From the human T2T-CHM13v2.0 reference genome, Homo sapiens: DNA of 64,000 bases. A model generated the notes under the pieces. It was given only the letters and a program-made list of their open reading frames with translations, made no database searches and was not told the DNA's origin. The translations under genes and the position numbers were made by a program. Shown here in pieces: positions 7,565 through 64,000 of the stretch (positions are counted from its first letter, which is position 1; each line of letters opens with the position of its first letter). The DNA lies in assembly GCF_009914755.1 (NCBI RefSeq), contig NC_060932.1; one strand, written 5' to 3'.

Positions 7565-7887
<323 letters not shown>

Positions 7888-37998: not shown

Positions 37999-38339
37999 CA
38001 GACAATGCCTAATTTAGGATGGTTCAACTCATGTCTTTTTGACTTTATGATGGTGTGAAAGTGATACACATTCAGTAGAATCTAAACTTCAAATTTTAAA
38101 CTTTGATCTGTTCTGGGCTAGCGGTATGTGGTACTCTCCTGGGATGCTGGACAGTGGCAGCGAGCCACAGAACCCAGTCAGCCACATGATCAGGAGGGAA
38201 AATAGCCCAACTTTACAGTGTAAGTGGTGTAAATTTATAACTGGCATATTCCTACAAAAGGCCCATTTTTGACTTGTAATATTTTTAACTTATTGTGGGT
38301 TTACCAGAAGATAACACTGTCATAAGTGGGGAGGCACTG
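37999..38339 (-). mobile_element. MER47B-like TcMar-Tigger element
   Basis: gactttatgatggtgtgaaagtgatacacattcagtagaa and ggcagcgagccacagaacccagtcagcc motifs. Confidence 0.75.
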
Positions 38340-38346
38340 CACTTAC

Positions 38347-38415
38347 CTGCATAGCTATCCTCTTCAATGATGCATGTTTCTGGACCTCAGCAATGTCACC
38401 AACTGCCAAACCAAT
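38347..38415 (-). pseudogene. TRPA2P: TRPA1-like exon 24 (S6 end/TRP helix), intact
   Basis: catacttcag|IGLAVGDIAEVQKHASLKRIAMQ|gtaagt; 69 bp. Confidence 0.96.
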
Positions 38416-38480
38416 CTGAAGTATGACACAAAATTAAATCACTACAGTTGAATGGTCCACCTAAAAATGCATGTAAGGTC

Positions 38481-38846
38481 TGTCTTAGTCCATTCAGACT
38501 GCTATGACAAAATATTTTAGTCTGGGTAATGTATAAATAGCATAAGTTAATTGCTTACAGTTCTGCAGGCTGGGAAGTCCAAAATCAAGACTCAGGCAGA
38601 ACTGGTTTCCGGTGAGAGCCCATTCCTCGTAGGTGGCACCTTCTATGTGTTCCCGTATGGCAGAAGGGCAAAGAAGCTAATAAGCTCCCTCATAGCTCTT
38701 TTATAAGGGAACTAATTCCATTCATAAGGGCTCTCCCCTCATGGCCTAATCACCTCCCAAAGGCCCCACCTTCTAATGCCATCTTCTTGGTGATTAGGTT
38801 TCTATATATACATTTTGGATGGGACATAAAAATTCAAACCATAGCA
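38481..38846 (-). mobile_element. MLT1A-like solo LTR
   Basis: tgtcttagtcc...caaaccatagca termini; 4/5 TSD aggtc/aggcc. Confidence 0.85.
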
Positions 38847-39757
38847 AGGCCTCTGTGGCTAAAGTGGGAGAGTGGGCATATGATCTACTAGTAGTAGCTG
38901 CAGAATACTTTGGTAATACACCTTACAGAAAACTACAAAGCCTATATACCTCTGCAACAATGACGGACACATTCAGAGGTTCAGTACTCTTAAGTGTTAA
39001 GACACACACATTAATCTGAAATTCATTTCATTTAAGATAAAAATCTGTTTTGTTTTATTTGGTTTTTTTTTTGCAAGGACAAGGATGATGTGATATTACA
39101 TGCAATTGGGTGTGGCCACACAACATGGCAGGAAACTCCAGGAGTTTAGTAACTAAGGTAGACAAGAGCGATTTAACAACATGGAAACAAATACTAAACT
39201 GAGAGAATGATACATTTTATATCTTGTATATGTTCAGAAGGAAAACAGATATTATAGGGGCAGGAGAGGCTCTGGTAAGAAACCAGAAATTTATGGCTAG
39301 ATAGGATTAGGTGGGGGGAAGGTGTTAGCTCAGTTCTACTCAATCTGATGAATTAGCTCATTTCACTCACTCATTTATTTTTCAGGCACTTAGTTCCTGT
39401 CTTTGCTGAGCCAGTGTCTTGCATGCTGCACCAGAAAGAAAAGTCAGTGACTGCTCTTGAGGAGCTCAAAGTCCAGTAAACCATATGTGAAAAGTGATCT
39501 GTCAAGGTCATCACTGTATGCCCAGTGCTTAGTATAGAGCAGGGCACATAATAGGTAAACAAAACAGTCACAGAATGAATGAAGACAGGGAGAATATATT
39601 CTAGGGCTTGCAAACTAGCATTGAGAACTGGATATAGTCAGGAAATAGGTTTTACTGGGCAGAATAACTTTTGTTTGGTTTTTCATTTGCAAGTCTTCAG
39701 CTGGGTATTCTCACCGATTTACAACAGTCGCCATCAAAACCAAACATCTCTGATTTT

Positions 39758-40057
39758 TGCCAGGCGTGGCAGCTCACATTTGTAATCTCAGCACTTTGGG
39801 AGGCTGAAGTGGGAGGATCACTTGAGCCCTGGACTTCCAGACCAGCCTGAGCAACACAGTGAAACCCTCTCTCTACAAAAATACAAAAATTACCTGGGCA
39901 TGGTGGTGAGCACCTGTAGTTGCAGCTACTAGGTTGGCTGAGGTGGGAGGATCATCTGAGACTGGGAGGTAGAAGCTTCAGTGAGCCATGATCACTCCAC
40001 TGCACTCCAGCCTGGGTCACAGACTGAAACCCTGTCTCAAAAAAAAAAAAAAAAAAA
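39758..40057 (+). mobile_element. AluJ
   Basis: gggaggatcacttgagccc and aggtgggaggatcatctgag J-type motifs; poly-A tail. Confidence 0.92.
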
Positions 40058-40299: not shown

Positions 40300-41010
40300 A
40301 GCTATGGTAACACAAGGAAAGAGCACCCAATAGAGTAAGGTAATTGGAAGTCTACCCCAAAGAAATGATACTTGTGCTGTTTTGAAAGCGTAGCGTTAAC
40401 CCATGGTGGGAGGATTTCCAGGCAAAAGGAAGAGCCTCTACAGAGTGTAGGCAGCATGAAGGAAAGAGTGGCACACTCAGGGAATGTGCATTTCTGGGTA
40501 AATCCTGGGAACAGTAGGAATTGGGTAAGATATAGGTAAATCCAGCTCATAGGGACATTTGCCTGCTATGCTGATGGGTTTGGACTGAATTAAAGCTTTT
40601 GAAGAGGCATGGAAAAAATACTTAAAAGAGTCACTGATGGGTTCAGTTTTTAATTATCAGATGGTCACTCTGGTGACCATTTGTAGGAAGAATTAGACAA
40701 AGCAGTGTGATAAGGTAGAGATGCTCTTGAGGCTGCTGCATCAATTTGGATGAGGAACCGTAACAGTCCAAGCCAACTGGAAGCAGATGTGAAAGCCAAA
40801 GAATTACTGAAAGAACTGATGAAAAACGTGGGAGAGTGAAATAGAGACTATCTGCCAATGATCTTAGTAGGATGACTAGGAGATTCTACTGAGAGGCAGT
40901 GGAGATTCTGAAGGAAAGATAACATTAGTCTTGGCTCTGTTGGTTTTGATTTTCCACCAGGATATCCAGGTAGAGATGCACAGTGGGTGTTGGATGTTTG
41001 GATCTTCAGA
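40300..41010 (-). mobile_element. L2 fragment
   Basis: ccaggcaaaaggaagagc...ggcagcatgaagg and gatatccaggtagagatgcacagtgggtgttggat motifs. Confidence 0.55.
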
Positions 41011-41589
41011 ATGGGGCCAACCTGTACTACTGCTAAGCCCAATTCTCTTCTGGATAATTATCTCCCAAAACATAAACAATTATCAGAGAACAATGTAGGC
41101 TTTGTGTCATTCTCCATTATTCCTATTGCCATCCTTTGTTTTTCTAGGTCACCAAAATAAAACTCTGGAGTTGTATCAAATAAGTGGACCAAAATACTTA
41201 CGAGCCTGCATAATTTTTTTCTTTCCAGAAGCACTAACTAGCACATTCTCTGGTACATAGTCAGACTCAGAGAAAGTGTGTGGAATACGTACATGTGTGC
41301 ATAAATGGATAAAGGAAAAACAGGCATGAAAATGCCAATAAGCAACCACCACAGACCTAGAGTGGGATGCACCTTTGCCTGCATCAGCCAGCATGCTCAT
41401 GGCTTGGGCAGATTCTCTAGAGAATTCCATGTGGAAGGGCACTCTCATGTCTGCTGATAGGGTCTAGGCTTTGGCAGGGTTCAGGGTGGCATCTGAACGT
41501 TGCAGACGCCCTTTGCATGAGAGACTTCTCCACTTGGATGTCTGGTCAATGGTAAATTTGAGCATAGAGACAATATGTTCCGTAAAGGT

Positions 41590-41920
41590 CTCTGCCTAAC
41601 CTCTGACCCCCTCTCCAACTCCAAAGCATCACACACCTTCATCTTTATTGCCTTTCCCTGCTTCTTATTTCTTCATAGCATTTATCACCCCCATGACATT
41701 ATGCTACACAGTTATTTGTTTATTTAACTTCCTGACTATTTTGTAATCACACTAGGACTGAATATTGGTCTGCTTTCTTCAACACTGTTTCCCAGAACTT
41801 GCAACAGTTCATGGTATTTAGTAGATTCTCGGTATTTGCCAAGTGCATGCATCTGTGCACGCCCTGAGCCTCTTGATGTGCCTGGTGCTCCCCAGGCACC
41901 AAATGAGTGTTGAATGAATA
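41590..41920 (+). mobile_element. L2 3' end
   Basis: ttcttcatagcatttatcacc...tgttgaatgaata. Confidence 0.65.
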
Positions 41921-42938: not shown

Positions 42939-43152
42939 CTAGGAAAATGAAAAAATAAAATATATACTCACTTTTGTGGTCAAAGTGTATCCATACAGCG
43001 AAACCATCGTGTATTAAATCAGGTATTAGATTTCATAGATGAGATCATTGAGGCCAATTATTTTGAAAAAGAAAACATTAATTGAATAATCATATCTCAT
43101 TTTCAATGTGTTAATCAAATTTATTTTTTCTTACTATTAATGTTATCTAGTT

Positions 43153-43439
43153 TTGGATCCAAGATCTTGCTTTATCACCCAGGTTGGAGTGCAGAGGTGT
43201 GATCATGGCTCACTACAACTCTGACCTCCGAGGTTCAGGTGATCCTCCTGTCTTAGCTTCCCAAGTAGCTGGGACCACAAGTGTGTGCCATCAAACCTGG
43301 CTGATTATTGCATTTTTTTTGTAGAGAAAGGATTTTGCCATGTTGCCCATGCTGGTCTCAAACTCCTGGTCTCAAGCAATCAGCCGACCTCGGCCTTTCA
43401 AAGTGCTGGGATTACAAGGGTGAGCCACTGCGCCTGGCC
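43153..43439 (-). mobile_element. AluJ
   Basis: gatcatggctcactacaact and ctcaagcaatc J-type motifs. Confidence 0.88.
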
Positions 43440-44019
43440 CTAAGGTTATCTTAAATCATTTTACCGCTTGGCAACTGGACATTACTTCAACTGAAGTAGG
43501 CGAGAAAAATAACAGCTTCCCAATATCAAAGAAGATGCTACCAAATTGGTAATAAAGAAATTAGAGAGGTAAATGGTGTGCTACATCAAGCAGAGATTAA
43601 CTGAGTTCATGAACTGGAAGACACCTAATGCAGGGTACACAACATATGATTTGTATTTGATCCTTTTATCTCCTTCAGTTTTCTTTTCTACCCACTGCAT
43701 CCTATATTGGGAAATGTCTGGATAAATAATGGGTTTGTCATCTGGCCACTAACTTGTACTTTGCATTTGGCAAAGACAACTTGTTAAAAGAGGAAATCAC
43801 AATACTATAAAGCTGAAAGGGACTTCAGCTAAGTTCACAGAGATGCCTAGTAACTCACTAAAGCCACTAATAATGACAGAGCCAAGGGTGTGACAGTGTC
43901 TGAACCTGCCTTAAATCCTCTTATTCCTTAGCCACTGCCTTTGTTACCATACCATGTCCTCTCCAAGAGGACACACTCAACTTTGTGCCACTGTGCTCCT
44001 GACACAGTAATGCAGACGA

Positions 44020-45060: not shown

Positions 45061-45230
45061 CTTCAAAGACACAATAAGAAATTAATCCAATAAAAATAAA
45101 CCACGATTGCTCCACATTGCCACTGCAGATGGGCTGCTATTTCAGTGAACAAGGGCAGCACTAAAATGGGGCCCATCGTGTTGATAATCCATTCAGTACT
45201 ACTGCTAATATCCATAAAGTAATTCCTTTT
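45061..45230 (-). pseudogene. TRPA2P: TRPA1-like exon 21 (S3-S4) with stop (Q851*)
   Basis: KRNYFMDISSSTEWIINTMGPILVLPLFTEIAAHLQWQCGAIVVYFYWINFLLCL*R; TGA at 45063-45065; 170 bp. Confidence 0.96.
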
Positions 45231-48572: not shown

Positions 48573-51076
48573 GAGGGATGAATGTCAATAAGGTAGCAAA
48601 ACAGGAAGTCCTCCTCCACAGAGATATGTAATTAAAAACAATACACAGACCATTACCTTTGTGAGCAATGCAGAACCTAGTTAAGAGATGCCTAAACCCT
48701 AGGTGAGCATGTAACCAAAAAGAACCATATCAAAGACAGTAGAAAAATTCATGGCCTTTACTCACCACAGCTCTTCCCTCTGGCACAGCACAGTGTCATT
48801 GGGAAAAAAAAACTTTCAACTCCTGGTTTCTCCCTGGAATAAGAGAAAAAAAAGAGTGGAAGATACATCCAATGTTCTGATTTCTGAGAGGCTACCCAAG
48901 AAAATGTTTTTTATCTTGCCTGAATCTAAGCTCTGAAAGGAATAAGTGCCAGGAGAGGATCACTGATAACAAAGTTGGTCACTGGGACTTAGTCTAATGC
49001 CAGAGAAGATACAGTGTCACAGACAGACACTAGGCAGTGTCCCAGTATCATGACTTGCTACAGCACCAGAGAGGCTGTAGTACCACAGACATATACTGAG
49101 GGGAGGTACTGAGTAAAGAGAGGTAAGCCTCTTCAACTGGTAGATAACAAGCACAAGCCCAGAGAAGATGAATCCCTAGAAAAGGCTTGAGAGGTCTCCA
49201 GCCTTTTCTAAAGAGAGGTAAGCCTCTTTAACTGGTAGATAACAAGCACAAGCCCAGAGAAGATGAATCCCTAGAAAAGGCTTGAGAGGCCTCCAGCATT
49301 TGTAGCCAGGCAGAAGAAACAATGAGTGAATTCAATGACAGGATATTCAAAATTATCAAGTCTGAAGAGCAAAAAGAAAAAAGAAAAGAAAAGAAGAAAA
49401 GTGAAGAGAGCCTAAGGGATTTAAAGAAAACAAGCAGAACAGCATGCACATTATGAAAAGTTCCAAAGGAGAAAAAGAAGATGGAGGATTAGAAAGCCTA
49501 TTTGAATAAATAGTGACTGAAAATCTCCCTAATCTGAGAAAAGAAATGAACACACACATTCAAGAAGCTCAAAGAACTTCAACTAGCATAAATTTAAAGT
49601 GAGCTATCCTGAGACACATTATAATCAAACTGTCAAAATTCAGACAGAGACAATTTTGAAATCAGCAAGAGAAAAGCAAGCTATCACATACCCAGTAGCT
49701 CCAATATGATTATCAGCAAATTTCTAGGCAGAAACATTGCAGGCTAGAAGAGAGTGGAATGATATATTCAAACTACTGACAGAAAATAAACTGACAACCA
49801 AGAATATTATAACTGGTAAAAACGGTCCTTTAAAAATAAAGGAGAAATAAGATTTTCCCAGGTAAACATAGGGCGAGAAAGCGCATCACCACTAGACTGG
49901 CCCTATAAGAAATGCTGAAGAGAGTTCTTCAAATTGAAATGAAAAAAATGTTAAACAGCAACACAAAATCATACAAAAGTATAAAACTCTCTGGTAAAGG
50001 TCAACATATAGACAATTATAGAATTCTGTCATATTATAAGCAAAAAAATTACTTTTAAATCTGGCATAAAAGTATTTAAACAATAGCACAGAAAGTAACT
50101 CTAAATCTATGTTAATGGATATGCAATTAAGAAGCAGTATTATGCATCATCAAGAACGTAAAAGTGGATGTGGATGAAGTAATACAAAGTAGAGTTTTTC
50201 TATGCAGTTGAAGTTAAATTGTTATCAGTTTAAAATAGATTCTTATACATTTAAGATATTTGATGTAATTGCAATGTTAACTGATAAGAAAATATGTATA
50301 TAATATACACAAAAGGAAACAGTAAGGGAATCAAAACATATCACTACAAGAAAAATATCAATGAAACACAAAAGAAGACAGCAAGATAGGAGAAAAGAGA
50401 TGAAAGAGCTACCACATACTGAAAACAATTAATGAAGTGGCAATAGTAAGTGATTTCCTGTCAGTAATTACTTTAAAGGTAAATTGGTTAAACTCTCCTA
50501 TTAAAATACAAAGATTGACTGAATGGATAAAACACAGGATTCAACTATATGCTGTCTACAAGAGACTCAGTTTAGATATAAGAACAACACACCGAAAGTG
50601 AAAAGATGGAAAAATATTCCATCCTTTCACATATTCCATTCAAATAAGTAATATGTAGTATTTCTTTTAAAAGATAAGGAATATGTGGTATGTACATACA
50701 ATGGAATATTATTCAGCCTTAAAAAAGAAGAAAGTCACGTCACATGCTCTAATATGGATGAACCTTGAGGAGATTATGGTAAATGAAATAAGCAAGTCAC
50801 AGAAGTACAAATACTTTAAGATTCCACTTATATGAAGTACTTAAATTAGTGAAAATCATAGAAACAGAAAATAGAAAGTGGTTTCCAAGGGCTGGGGGAA
50901 GGTTGAGGGGAAATTAGTGTTTAATAAGTACAGGGTTTCAGTTTTGCAACATGAAAGAATTCTAGACATTTCTTGAGTAACAATATGAAAATAATTAACA
51001 CTACTGAACTGTACATTTGAAAACAGTTAAGACAGTAAATTTAACTTTATGTTTTTTGCCACAAGCAAAAAAGAAA
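48573..51076 (+). mobile_element. L1MA9/MB1-like element with large internal deletions
   Basis: 5' UTR, ORF1 remnant, ORF2 start (atatgctgtctacaagagactca), a jump at about 50640 to the 3' end, and A tail; TSD-like AAGAAATA(C/T)ATA. Confidence 0.8.
49114..49297 (+). repeat. Tandem duplication with 95-bp period
   Basis: taaagagaggtaagcctct...ctccagc at 49114-49202 and 49209-49297 with 2 mismatches. Confidence 0.93.
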
Positions 51077-60020: not shown

Positions 60021-60188
60021 CTTTTGCTCCTGATGGTCATAAGAACCACCTCCTTCTTCTTATTGTGAAGTGCAAGGTGCAAAAAGGAGGCCTGCCTGCT
60101 CCTTGTTCAGGACTATGTCAGCATTGTGGCTCAGAAGTGCAAAGGCTTTGGCACGGCCTTCCCTTGCAGCAAAGTGAAGTGCAGTGTT
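60021..60188 (-). pseudogene. TRPA2P: TRPA1-like exon 14 with 3-bp deletion and 4-bp duplication frameshift
   Basis: NTALHFAAREGRAKAFALLSHNADIVLNKEQ-(CAGG duplicated, 60091-60098)-ASFLHLALHNKKKEVVLMTIRSKR; 168 bp. Confidence 0.95.
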
Positions 60189-60411
60189 CTTTTGAAGAAA
60201 CGGACACAGAAAATGTGGTGACAATGCCTAATCTGCTTTGTTTCATGGCTGAACTGCCTAAAAGACATTTGCAACACTAATGATTTAATACCAAAATACA
60301 TAGCATTTAAAACTGGTGTTCAAGCTTCAAACTAATGAGTTTATAGTTCAAACATGGTGTGAGTGTGCATGTGTGGGAAGTGGGTCTGTTTGTGTATGTG
60401 TGGGAAGTGGA

Positions 60412-60413
<2 letters not shown>

Positions 60414-60456
<43 letters not shown>

Positions 60457-60472
60457 AACAGAGAGAGAGAGA
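60414..60472. repeat. (TG)n(AG)n microsatellite
   Basis: Direct reading. Confidence 0.93.
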
Positions 60473-61190: not shown

Positions 61191-61303
61191 CCCGTCTTCA
61201 TCTATGTGATCTGTGCACTTCAAATTACTATCAAGAATGACCTTCATGGTCTGAGTGTACCCTTATGGATGCATGATGCAAAACCATCTAGCCATTGTGG
61301 TCA
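61191..61303 (-). pseudogene. TRPA2P: TRPA1-like exon 13 with stop (W515*) and 2-bp deletion
   Basis: DHNG*MVLHHASI-(frameshift)-GYTQTMKVILDSNLKCTDHIDEDG; TAG at 61288-61290; 113 bp vs 115 expected; AG/GT intact. Confidence 0.95.
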
Positions 61304-62708: not shown

Positions 62709-62943
62709 TTTTTTTTTTTTTTTTTTGAGACGGATTCAAACGATTCTCCTTCCTCAGCCTCCTGAGTAGCTGGGATTACAGGCATGCACCACCAAGCTCA
62801 GCTAATTTTGTTTTTGTATTTTTAGTAGAGATGGGGTTTCTCCATGTTGGTCAGGCTAGTCTCGAACTCCCGACCTCAGGTGATCCACCCGCCTCGGCCT
62901 CCCAAAGTGCTGGGATTATAGGCTTGAGCCACCGCGCCCGGCC
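62709..62943 (-). mobile_element. AluSp with a right-arm deletion of about 70 bp
   Basis: tttctccatgttggtcaggct...cccgacctcagg Sp diagnostics; TSD CCCTTCCAG(C/T)ATTT. Confidence 0.9.
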
Positions 62944-63107
62944 CCCTTCCAGTATTTAAGAAGTTACGTGTTGATGATAAAATAAAATGTATAAAACTAC
63001 TTAGTGAAATATAAAGTTAGACAACATAATTAAAAATATAATGAAAAGATAGCCTGAAAATGGCTAATTAAAGAAACTATATAAACACCCCAATCATATA
63101 TCCGCAC

Positions 63108-63272
63108 CTGAGAAACAATGCACCTTTTTTCAGAAGAAGCTGAACTACTTTATCATGTCCATTCTTTGCTGCCAGATGGAGAGGAGTCATTCCATGAAGG
63201 TCCCCTTCATTCAGAAGCCTCGTATCACTTATGTCTTGTAGGAGCCTCTGACAGGTATTGATACGCCCATAA
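63108..63272 (-). pseudogene. TRPA2P: TRPA1-like exon 12, intact
   Basis: ttttttccaag|YGRINTCQRLLQDISDTRLLNEGDLHGMTPLHLAAKNGHDKVVQLLLKKGALFLS|gtgcgg; 165 bp; 85-bp intron separates it from exon 11. Confidence 0.97.
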
Positions 63273-63357
63273 CTTGGAAAAAATTAGGTTTCATATTTTC
63301 AAGGCAAATATTAAACAGAAAGAAGACAGGTTCATACAATGCTAGACTGACCCTTAC

Positions 63358-63527
63358 CTGGCTGCAAAATGCAGAGGTGATTTCTTATCTTTGCTTTTGG
63401 AATGAATGGACACATTAAAGCCAAGTAGGTTATTTACAGAACCAGGGCCCCCCTGTCTACATGCATAATGTAGAGGAGTACACCCATCGTTGTCTTCATC
63501 CATTACCAGCTCTTTGATCTGTTGCAT
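63358..63527 (-). pseudogene. TRPA2P: TRPA1-like exon 11 (ankyrin repeats), intact
   Basis: ttttttcctgtag|MQQIKELVMDEDNDGCTPLHYACRQGGPGSVNNLLGFNVSIHSKSKDKKSPLHFAAS|gtaagg; 170 bp. Confidence 0.97.
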
Positions 63528-64000
63528 CTACAGGAAAAAATTAATATCATACAAATAACTCTGCTGTTATGCTAAAATGATGGTTTCCAAACTATTCTGT
63601 AGGAAAATATTTTCCAACAAGGGTCAATATGTATTCCTTGGGGCCAAAATTGTAAATAACCTAAAGGATTTGAGAGTAAAATAAATATGAATGAAGTTGA
63701 ATGCTCTGTCTTCATGTAATGTACATTACCATATTAAAGGCTCTGAGAGATCCTGCAAGTGGGAAAATATTAAATAATAAATTTAATATTATTTAATATA
63801 AATAATAATAAAAACTTAACATTTTTAACTCAGTATTTTTCAAATATATTTGATCACAGCCCTTCCTTCTGCTCCTCCTCTCACTTCCTCCTGCTCCTAA
63901 GTAACACCTAACAGCTTCATGTTAATAAGTTCTGTTAGGTAAAATGGAAGGGATGTTAAAATTAGGTTTACTTTATCTTTTATATGTATAGTAAATTAAA

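What the first reader, a model, noticed from the sequence alone, without database searches (positions are those of the whole stretch)
63108..63527. Exons 11-12 look identical to human TRPA1: candidate recent gene-conversion tract
Seen: 335 coding nt with no lesion and surviving CpGs (AACGAT, GGGCGT, ATACGA), whereas exon 13, 1.8 kb away, has a stop, a frameshift and several substitutions. From memory the peptide matches human TRPA1 399-510 at every residue, including human-type MQQI and GGPGSV. Inference: interlocus gene conversion from TRPA1. That would also create a short-read mapping blind spot in TRPA1 and a route for pseudogene variants to enter it.
Basis: partly seen in the sequence, partly recalled or inferred. 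Interest (0 to 1): 0.8.

Follow-up and report, generated by a model that had tools for sequence, protein, structure and literature searches.

The report
TRPA1-to-pseudogene gene conversion tract
A stretch of about 700 bases in the dead neighbour copy of the human pain-sensor gene TRPA1 was overwritten with the working gene's sequence a few million years ago, which is a real but ordinary kind of event with little practical consequence.

Summary
TRPA2P exons at 63358-63527 and 63108-63272 (minus strand) are intact and keep AG/GT splice sites. They translate to exactly human TRPA1 399-510. At nucleotide level they match the TRPA1 copy of the same genome at 334 of 335 bases; the one difference is a synonymous Gly478 change.

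TRPA2P is a tandem, colinear, truncated duplicate of TRPA1, about 175 kb away. Mismatch is 11.05% over 48,981 aligned columns. Against that background, window 63025-63718 has 11 mismatches in 694 columns (98.4% identity). It is the strongest low-divergence segment of the locus, and 0 of 300 shuffles reach its score.

The tract includes the 85-bp intron (2 of 85 mismatches) and about 270 bp of flanking intron. Synonymous divergence is 0.013, against 0.152 in 7 other exons. This rules out selection or chance.

Ortholog comparison points to TRPA1 as donor. Divergence of 1.6% means the event is millions of years old, not population-recent.

The "mapping blind spot" is overstated: 42 of 563 150-mers are identical to the paralog. 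The only coding difference available for back-transfer is synonymous.

I found no description in print. Verdict: a real, ordinary interlocus gene conversion and a new member of a known kind.

The parts
63025..63718 (-). Gene-conversion tract: TRPA2P sequence 98.4% identical to TRPA1 (chr8 72490440-72491133 of the same assembly).
   Evidence: Maximal low-divergence segment of the locus: 694 columns, 11 mismatches, LLR 47.7 against a shuffle maximum of 13.5 (0 of 300). Mismatch positions are listed. No indel inside the tract.
63358..63527 (-). TRPA2P exon equivalent to TRPA1 exon 11 (aa 399-454 plus 2 nt). Intact.
   Evidence: 170/170 nt identical to TRPA1. 56/56 aa identical to PDB human TRPA1. 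AG/GT splice sites kept. The exon lies wholly inside a 191-bp run of perfect identity, 63340-63530.
63273..63357 (-). 85-bp intron between the two exons, also converted.
   Evidence: 2 of 85 mismatches (63329, 63339). P(<=2 | 85 columns, 11.05%) = 0.003.
63108..63272 (-). TRPA2P exon equivalent to TRPA1 exon 12 (aa 455-510). Intact.
   Evidence: 164/165 nt identical. The one difference, at 63203, is the third position of Gly478 (GGG against GGT). 54/54 aa identical. PDB TRPA1 456-509 matched.
62713..62964 (.). Alu-like insertion present only in TRPA2P, 60 bp beyond the low-coordinate edge of the tract (context, a possible barrier to the tract).
   Evidence: It appears as a gap against TRPA1. 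It matches dispersed Alu-like copies. No colinear TRPA1 partner exists. The 60 bp between it and the tract carry 9 mismatches.
63719..63741 (.). High-coordinate edge of the tract: a mismatch at 63719, an 18-bp indel after 63731 (extra bases in TRPA1), then dense mismatches.
61191..61303 (-). Unconverted exon-13 equivalent, used as contrast: TGG->TAG stop, 2-bp deletion, 11 of 113 mismatches.

Best explanation
TRPA2P is a tandem, same-strand, 3'-truncated duplicate of TRPA1 that arose within anthropoid primates and has decayed to about 89% identity. Later, one short non-allelic (interlocus) gene conversion copied about 0.7 kb of TRPA1 over the matching part of TRPA2P, now window 63025-63718. 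The copied piece comprised exon 11, the 85-bp intron, exon 12 and about 270 bp of flanking intron. It erased whatever lesions had accumulated there.

The likely mechanism (inferred, not shown) is repair of a break in TRPA2P by synthesis-dependent strand annealing, or heteroduplex repair during misaligned pairing, using TRPA1 174.6 kb away as template. Both ends of the tract lie next to heterologies: an 18-bp indel on one side and a TRPA2P-specific Alu 60 bp away on the other.

Since the event the two copies have collected 11-12 differences (1.6%). That places it roughly at great-ape or African-ape age. The intact look of the two exons is a by-product of copying, not evidence of function.
For: 1. 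Locus structure. The locus is a colinear duplicate with 48,981 aligned columns at 11.05% mismatch.
2. The tract stands out. It has 694 columns with 11 mismatches and LLR 47.7, and 0 of 300 column shuffles reach this (maximum 13.5). It is the minimum of all 694-column windows (11 against a median of 78 and a next best of 23).
3. Non-coding and silent sites are converted too. The non-coding part has 10 of 359 mismatches (P = 5e-9) and the intron 2 of 85. pS is 1/74.3 = 0.013, against 27.3/179.8 = 0.152 in 7 other equal-length exons (P = 7e-5).
4. CpGs. They are retained in both copies at 3 of 4 sites in the tract, against 77 of 518 elsewhere in the block.
5. Neighbouring exons are decayed. The other 11 annotated exons in the window are 82-98.6% identical. 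Exon 13 has a stop and a frameshift. Many other exons carry stops.
6. Direction. Across about 103 scorable sites of exons 11-12, human TRPA1 differs from the platyrrhine-plus-outgroup consensus at 1 residue (Q401). TRPA2P differs from the consensus at 141 of 657 sites elsewhere (an over-count that includes frameshifted stretches). A pseudogene donor would therefore have put many changes into TRPA1.
7. Copy number. Only two places in the whole assembly match the 801-base query.
Against: - No primate DNA was available. The classical test, whether paralogs group by species inside the tract and by locus outside it, was not run.
- The date rests on recalled primate divergence values.
- Direction is inferred from proteins only. 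The flanking intron cannot be polarised.
- Exons are less diverged than non-coding parts of the tract (1 of 335 against 10 of 359, Fisher P = 0.012). One event plus constraint on the TRPA1 side explains this only partly. However, scans for a nested younger segment are not significant once corrected for choosing the boundaries (107 and 123 of 300 random placements do as well).
- At about 89-90% background identity, conversion should be rare (established knowledge on homology requirements, recalled).
- Only one haploid assembly was examined.
Confidence: 0.9

Rival explanations
1. Two or more conversions at the same spot: an older event of about 0.7 kb and a younger one of about 0.4 kb covering 63105-63530. 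The island of identity would be self-reinforcing and possibly still active.
For: The core 63105-63530 has 3 of 426 mismatches, against 8 of 268 in the outer parts (Fisher P = 0.027). Exons have 1 of 335, against 10 of 359 in non-coding parts (P = 0.012).
Against: The boundaries were chosen after looking at the data. With random placement of 11 mismatches, a run of at least 191 identical bases occurs in 107 of 300 trials. An equally good nested interval occurs in 123 of 300 trials. Constraint on TRPA1 exons lowers exon divergence anyway (inference).
Confidence: 0.2
2. The conversion ran the other way: TRPA2P donated exons 11-12 to TRPA1. For example, Q401 would be pseudogene-derived.
For: Q401 is shared by human and chimpanzee TRPA1 and by TRPA2P. 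It is H in all 16 other mammals compared, including 2 New World monkeys. Identity alone does not give a direction.
Against: Human TRPA1 has only this 1 derived residue in about 103 scorable sites of exons 11-12. The TRPA2P lineage changed at roughly 10-20% of residues elsewhere (141 of 657, including frameshifted stretches) and carries stops or frameshifts in most exons. Three CpGs survive in the tract.
Confidence: 0.04
3. Purifying selection keeps exons 11-12 of TRPA2P intact because the transcribed pseudogene makes a functional ankyrin-repeat peptide or RNA. No conversion would be needed.
For: TRPA2P is annotated as transcribed (hub table). Within the spliced exons 11-13, an ATG at the start of exon 11 opens a frame through exon 12 to the exon-13 stop, 116 codons if spliced as annotated (inference).
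Against: Selection on a peptide does not protect synonymous sites (pS 0.013 against 0.152), the 85-bp intron (2 of 85 mismatches) or the flanking intron. The exons are internal in a 20-exon non-coding transcript.
Confidence: 0.02
4. Artefact: assembly collapse or consensus polishing pasted TRPA1 sequence into TRPA2P.
For: None from the calls.
Against: The tract is only about 0.7 kb, is flanked by 11%-diverged unique sequence and itself carries 11-12 copy-specific differences. Long reads of 10 kb or more would anchor unambiguously (inference). Reads were not available to check.
Confidence: 0.02

Closest known systems
Gene/pseudogene interlocus gene conversion in tandem human duplicates (CYP21A2/CYP21A1P, GBA1/GBAP1, SBDS/SBDSP1; recalled, no call)
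   Same: Short tracts of tens to about a thousand bp are copied non-reciprocally between a working gene and a nearby dead paralog on the same chromosome. They are recognised as islands of identity that include introns.
   Different: In those pairs the background identity is 96-98% and the medically relevant direction is pseudogene to gene, recurring in living people. Here the background is only about 89%. The detected event went gene to pseudogene, is millions of years old, and no disease allele is implied.
Conversion tracts catalogued in human segmental duplications (definition recalled: at least 1 kb and at least 90% identity)
   Same: Same signature and the same statistical detection: a run of shared sites against diverged flanks.
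   Different: The TRPA1/TRPA2P block is 88.9% identical on aligned columns, so it falls under the usual threshold. Duplication-based scans may never have examined it (inference). I did not see their supplements.
TRPA1 (human), ankyrin-repeat region, residues 399-510
   Same: The two TRPA2P exons encode exactly this segment.
   Different: In TRPA2P the segment sits in a gene with stops and frameshifts in neighbouring exons and without the last two coding exons. No channel can be made.

Membership tests
Interlocus (non-allelic) gene conversion tract | A discrete segment whose paralog divergence is significantly below that of the flanks on both sides | tested here: met
   11 of 694 mismatches against an 11.05% background. 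LLR 47.7, 0 of 300 shuffles reach it. Flanking 100-column windows return to 80-90% identity.
Interlocus (non-allelic) gene conversion tract | The low divergence includes silent and non-coding sites, so it is not due to selection on the protein | tested here: met
   pS 0.013 against 0.152. Intron 2 of 85 mismatches. Non-coding part 10 of 359, P = 5e-9. CpG retained at 3 of 4 sites against 77 of 518.
Interlocus (non-allelic) gene conversion tract | Non-reciprocal and local: colinearity and background divergence are kept on both sides, with no crossover product | tested here: met
   The colinear chain continues on both sides at 80-88% identity per HSP.
Interlocus (non-allelic) gene conversion tract | Phylogenetic incongruence: inside the tract paralogs group by species, outside it by locus | not testable with these tools
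   No primate genomic DNA is held. Only protein orthologs were available.
Interlocus (non-allelic) gene conversion tract | An identifiable donor and acceptor | tested here: met
   Protein-level polarisation: human TRPA1 has 1 derived residue in about 103 sites of exons 11-12, against 141 of 657 on the TRPA2P lineage elsewhere. This points to TRPA1 as donor. It is an inference; there is no nucleotide outgroup.
Unprocessed (duplicated) pseudogene of TRPA1 | Intron-containing, colinear copy of the parent gene with disabling lesions | tested here: met
   The colinear block includes introns. Stops or frameshifts occur in many exons, and there is no match to aa 1018-1119.
Segmental duplication (at least 90% identity; definition recalled) | At least 90% identity over at least 1 kb | tested here: not met
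   88.9% on aligned columns over the whole block. Individual HSPs are 80-90% including gaps. Only short stretches exceed 90%.
Short-read 'camouflaged' region | Reads over the region align equally well to two or more places | tested here: not met
   150-mers identical to the paralog: 42 of 563. 100-mers: 118 of 519. No exon base is covered only by identical k-mers. TRPA1 appears in 0 of 42 supplementary files of PMC6526621, while the control SMN1 appears in 19. Stored files may be truncated.

The most novel reading that the evidence does not exclude
The converted island could be a self-sustaining exchange site that is still active in living humans. It is the only stretch of near-perfect identity in an otherwise 11%-diverged pair. 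Conversions might keep recurring there in both directions. The 11-12 paralog-distinguishing sites, including TRPA1 c.1434 (Gly478, synonymous) and the intronic sites next to the exon 11 and 12 splice sites, would then segregate as recurrent 'variants' in TRPA1 and TRPA2P. Some reported TRPA1 variants or association signals in this interval would be conversion products or cross-mapping.
Probability: 0.12. Interest if true: 0.45.

Novelty: new member of a known kind. Interest (0 to 1): 0.3.

Why it matters
TRPA1 is a major irritant and pain sensor and a drug target, so its variants are read in clinical and population data. There are three reasons the tract is worth knowing about.

- **Variant calling.** A 191-bp stretch holding all of exon 11, and most of exon 12, is duplicated almost perfectly 175 kb away. 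This explains why the pseudogene looks alive there. It also marks a small interval where single short reads can cross-map.
- **Gaps in genome-wide scans.** Conversion can act between paralogs below the 90% identity cut-off used to define segmental duplications. Scans built on that cut-off can miss such tracts.
- **Limits.** It is one more example of a well-understood process. The detected transfer went into the dead copy, and the only coding difference available for back-transfer is silent.

Tried and rejected
- **PRDM9-type hotspot motif.** I searched the window for CCNCCNTNNCCNC (recalled from memory). There were 2 matches, at 7848 and 37160, neither near the tract. Chance gives at least 2 in 9 of 100 shuffles. 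No support for a motif-driven hotspot.
- **Nested two-event model.** Not significant once the choice of boundaries is accounted for.
- **Literature.**
  - TRPA2P / LOC392232 / 'TRPA1 pseudogene' gave 4 papers, judged incidental from the listing alone (term occurrences, titles, abstract starts; no passages read).
  - TRPA1 + 'gene conversion' + pseudogene gave 1 paper, PMC11526382. I read its passages and they are unrelated.
  - TRPA1 + 'gene conversion' gave 14 papers. None is on this topic, judged by title and abstract start only.
- **Dark/camouflaged gene surveys.** The PMC6526621 supplements show TRPA1 in 0 of 42 files and the control SMN1 in 19. The single held supplement of PMC12800076 (2,419 characters) has no occurrence. 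bioRxiv supplements are closed.
- **Rows dropped.**
  - In the synonymous-site count, exon 45061-45230 was dropped because my frame finder failed.
  - Three annotated exons with length differences (48766-48833, 60021-60188, 61191-61303) were not included in that count.
  - In the ancestral-state counts, positions 269, 397, 398, 453, 454, 656 and 851 are artefacts of tblastn hits running past exon ends. I excluded them by eye.
- **Dating with primate DNA.** Per-exon primate trees, GENECONV proper and MAPQ from real reads could not be run.

Full report
**What is at the coordinates**

On the minus strand, 63527-63358 (170 nt) and 63272-63108 (165 nt) are two open exon-like segments. An 85-bp intron separates them, and each is bounded by AG and GT.

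- The first segment translates to 56 residues identical to human TRPA1 399-454 in solved structures such as 6v9v and 9m8n (alignment printed).
- The second segment matches TRPA1 456-509 over its whole length (that alignment was not printed).
- I therefore also translated the TRPA1 exons of the same genome. They agree at 56/56 and 54/54 residues, with AG/GT kept in both copies. The split codons 455 and 510 read Ser in both.
- Exon 13 (61191-61303) lies 1,805 bp away. It carries TGG->TAG, a 2-bp deletion and 11 of 113 mismatches.

Position 63203 differs (Gly478: GGG here, GGT in TRPA1), so nucleotide identity is 334/335.

**The locus**

The assembly holding the window could be searched. An 801-base query around the exons found exactly two places, itself and chr8 72490360-72491151 inside TRPA1, the latter at 97% identity. 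I fetched 80 kb around TRPA1 and 30 kb beyond the window end.

- BLAST shows one colinear, same-strand block running from about window 34985 to about 89167 (25 kb past the window end). It pairs with chr8 about 72460224-72514998.
- After chaining, 48,981 aligned columns have 11.05% mismatch.
- tblastn with a chimpanzee-cluster TRPA1 protein (P0001) finds TRPA2P counterparts of the coding exons up to residue 1017. Many carry stops and frameshifts. Nothing matches residues 1018-1119. TRPA2P is therefore a 3'-truncated, unprocessed, decayed duplicate.
- Two Alu-like elements sit at colinear positions in both copies (39759-40057 and 43120-43442). At least six others, including 62731-62944, are in TRPA2P only. 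Since Alus are primate-specific (established knowledge), the duplication happened within primates.
- Of 20 clean residues derived on the human lineage relative to two New World monkeys plus outgroups, excluding exons 11-12, TRPA2P shares 7 and lacks 13. This suggests a duplication on the catarrhine stem, or older patchy exchange.

**The tract**

A MAFFT alignment of 7.8 kb around the exons shows 100-column identities of 77-95% on both sides. From about 63058 to 63739 there is a plateau of 96-100%.

- A maximal-segment scan was run over the whole block. It scored a 1.5% mismatch rate against the background 11.05% (the rate).
- Its top segment is 63025-63718: 694 columns, 11 mismatches, score 47.7. 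The best score in 300 column shuffles was 13.5.
- Among all 694-column windows this one is the minimum (11 mismatches). The median is 78 and the best window not overlapping it has 23.
- The differences lie at 63077, 63089, 63104, 63203, 63329, 63339, 63531, 63566, 63576, 63587 and 63680, plus 63719 at the edge. There is no indel inside.
- The high-coordinate edge coincides with an 18-bp indel after 63731.
- The low-coordinate edge lies 60 bp, carrying 9 mismatches, from a TRPA2P-only Alu-like insertion at 62713-62964.

**Selection or chance?**

They are not.

| Measure | In the tract | Elsewhere |
|---|---|---|
| Synonymous divergence (pS) | 1/74.3 = 0.013 (exons 11-12) | 27.3/179.8 = 0.152 (7 other equal-length exons); P = 7e-5 |
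| 85-bp intron | 2 of 85 mismatches (P = 0.003) | |
| All non-coding parts of the tract | 10 of 359 mismatches (P = 5e-9) | |
| CpG retained in both copies | 3 of 4 sites | 77 of 518 in the block; 4 of 24 in the other 11 annotated exons |

One exon was dropped from the synonymous-site count for a frame-finding failure, and three exons with indels were not used. Selection on a peptide, chance and a mutational cold spot are all rejected as sufficient explanations.

**Direction**

One search returned TRPA1 orthologs, and I aligned 17 of them.

- In exons 11-12 the human and chimpanzee sequence differs from the consensus of two platyrrhines and 14 other mammals at one residue only, Q401 (H in all 16). 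P425 and S427 are shared with the platyrrhines.
- TRPA2P carries all the human-type states.
- Elsewhere the TRPA2P lineage differs from that consensus at 141 of 657 scorable sites. This is an over-count, because frameshifted stretches are included. Human TRPA1 differs at 24 of 657, some of which are artefacts at hit ends.
- Had the pseudogene been the donor, TRPA1 should show about ten or more changes in these 112 residues. It shows one. TRPA1 is therefore the donor.

This is an inference from proteins. The intronic part cannot be polarised here.

**Age**

Tract divergence is 1.59% (95% CI 0.79-2.84%), about one seventh of the background.

Compared with recalled genome-wide divergences (human-chimpanzee about 1.2%, gorilla about 1.6%, orangutan about 3%, macaque about 6%, marmoset about 11%), the conversion is roughly of African-ape to great-ape age. 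The duplication is roughly as old as, or somewhat younger than, the split from New World monkeys. These figures come from memory, not from a call.

'Recent' is right relative to the duplication and wrong on a population scale.

**One event or several?**

Exons (1 of 335) are cleaner than non-coding parts (10 of 359, P = 0.012). The core 63105-63530 (3 of 426) is cleaner than the outer parts (8 of 268, P = 0.027).

With random placement of 11 mismatches, a run of at least 191 bp occurs in 107 of 300 trials. An equally good nested interval occurs in 123 of 300 trials. One event is sufficient, and a second younger one is possible (about 0.2).

Perfect-identity runs are 191 bp (63340-63530, holding all of exon 11), 125 bp and 98 bp.

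- Of the placements overlapping the two exons, 42 of 563 150-mers, 118 of 519 100-mers and 0 of 517 250-mers are identical to the paralog.
- No exon base is covered only by identical k-mers.
- TRPA1 and LOC392232 occur in none of the 42 held supplementary files of the dark/camouflaged-gene survey PMC6526621. The control SMN1 occurs in 19. Stored files may be truncated.

There is a small zone of lowered mapping confidence, not a blind spot.

A back-conversion confined to the tract could transfer only a synonymous change plus intronic bases. The nearest disabling lesions are 1.8 kb away, through diverged intron.

**Known or new?**

Full-text searches gave the following.

- TRPA2P, LOC392232 or 'TRPA1 pseudogene': 4 papers, judged incidental from the listing alone.
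- TRPA1 with 'gene conversion' and 'pseudogene': 1 paper. Its passages were read and are unrelated.
- TRPA1 with 'gene conversion': 14 papers, none relevant by title or abstract start.

Genome-wide conversion catalogues may list the pair in supplements I did not see. The block's 88.9% identity is under the usual segmental-duplication cut-off (recalled), so it may not have been scanned at all.

The event belongs to a well-known class, so I rate it a new member of a known kind with modest interest.

**Not done**

No primate genomic DNA, read data or population variant data were available. Phylogenetic incongruence, MAPQ and polymorphism were therefore not tested.

Noticed in passing
window 38230-38938: The second-best low-divergence segment of the locus: 709 columns, 23 mismatches (96.8%), score 24.0 against a shuffle maximum of 13.5. 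It contains exon 38347-38415 (1 of 69 nt different), whose 24 residues (TRPA1 957-980) are identical to TRPA1. Flanks are 95% identical. Probably an older conversion tract.
   Followed up: partly
window 40821-41063, and the 38-42 kb stretch generally: An intronic segment with 4 mismatches in 243 columns (score 16.4). Several smaller ones lie at 39131-39225, 39512-39652 and 41601-41717. The whole 36-42 kb stretch is less diverged (about 9%) than 47-59 kb (12-15%). This hints at old, patchy exchange in the 3' part of the gene.
   Followed up: partly
outside the window: chr8 72687665-72688011 (L013:1665-2011), paired with chr8 72511554-72511900: 347 columns with 9 mismatches (97.4%, score 16.5), about 1 kb upstream of the annotated TRPA2P 5' end and of TRPA1's first coding exon. 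Either a conserved promoter-proximal element or another conversion tract.
   Followed up: no
window about 34985 to the window end and on to about 89167 (L011-L013): Extent of the duplication: about 54 kb colinear with TRPA1. It runs from the exon for residues 981-1017 to about 4.5 kb upstream of exon 1. There is no counterpart of the last two coding exons (residues 1018-1119), so the copy was truncated at birth or soon after.
   Followed up: partly
window 39759-40057 and 43120-43442: Alu-like elements present at colinear positions in both TRPA2P and TRPA1 (86.6% and 80.2% identical). They date the duplication to within primates. At least six other Alu-like insertions are private to TRPA2P.
   Followed up: partly
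TRPA1 residue 401 (window 63519-63521 in TRPA2P): Gln in human and chimpanzee TRPA1 and in TRPA2P, but His in all 16 other mammals compared, including two New World monkeys. It is a catarrhine- or ape-derived change in ankyrin repeat 11. When it arose relative to the conversion is unknown.
   Followed up: no
window 60390-60470: A (TG)n-type microsatellite in the intron next to the exon-14 equivalent. Local paralog identity drops to 77-81% there.
   Followed up: no
window 62712/62944 junctions: The two BLAST segments flanking the TRPA2P-only Alu-like insertion overlap by 16 bases on the TRPA1 side (A1 40354-40369). This is as expected for a target-site duplication of a retrotransposon insertion.
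   Followed up: no
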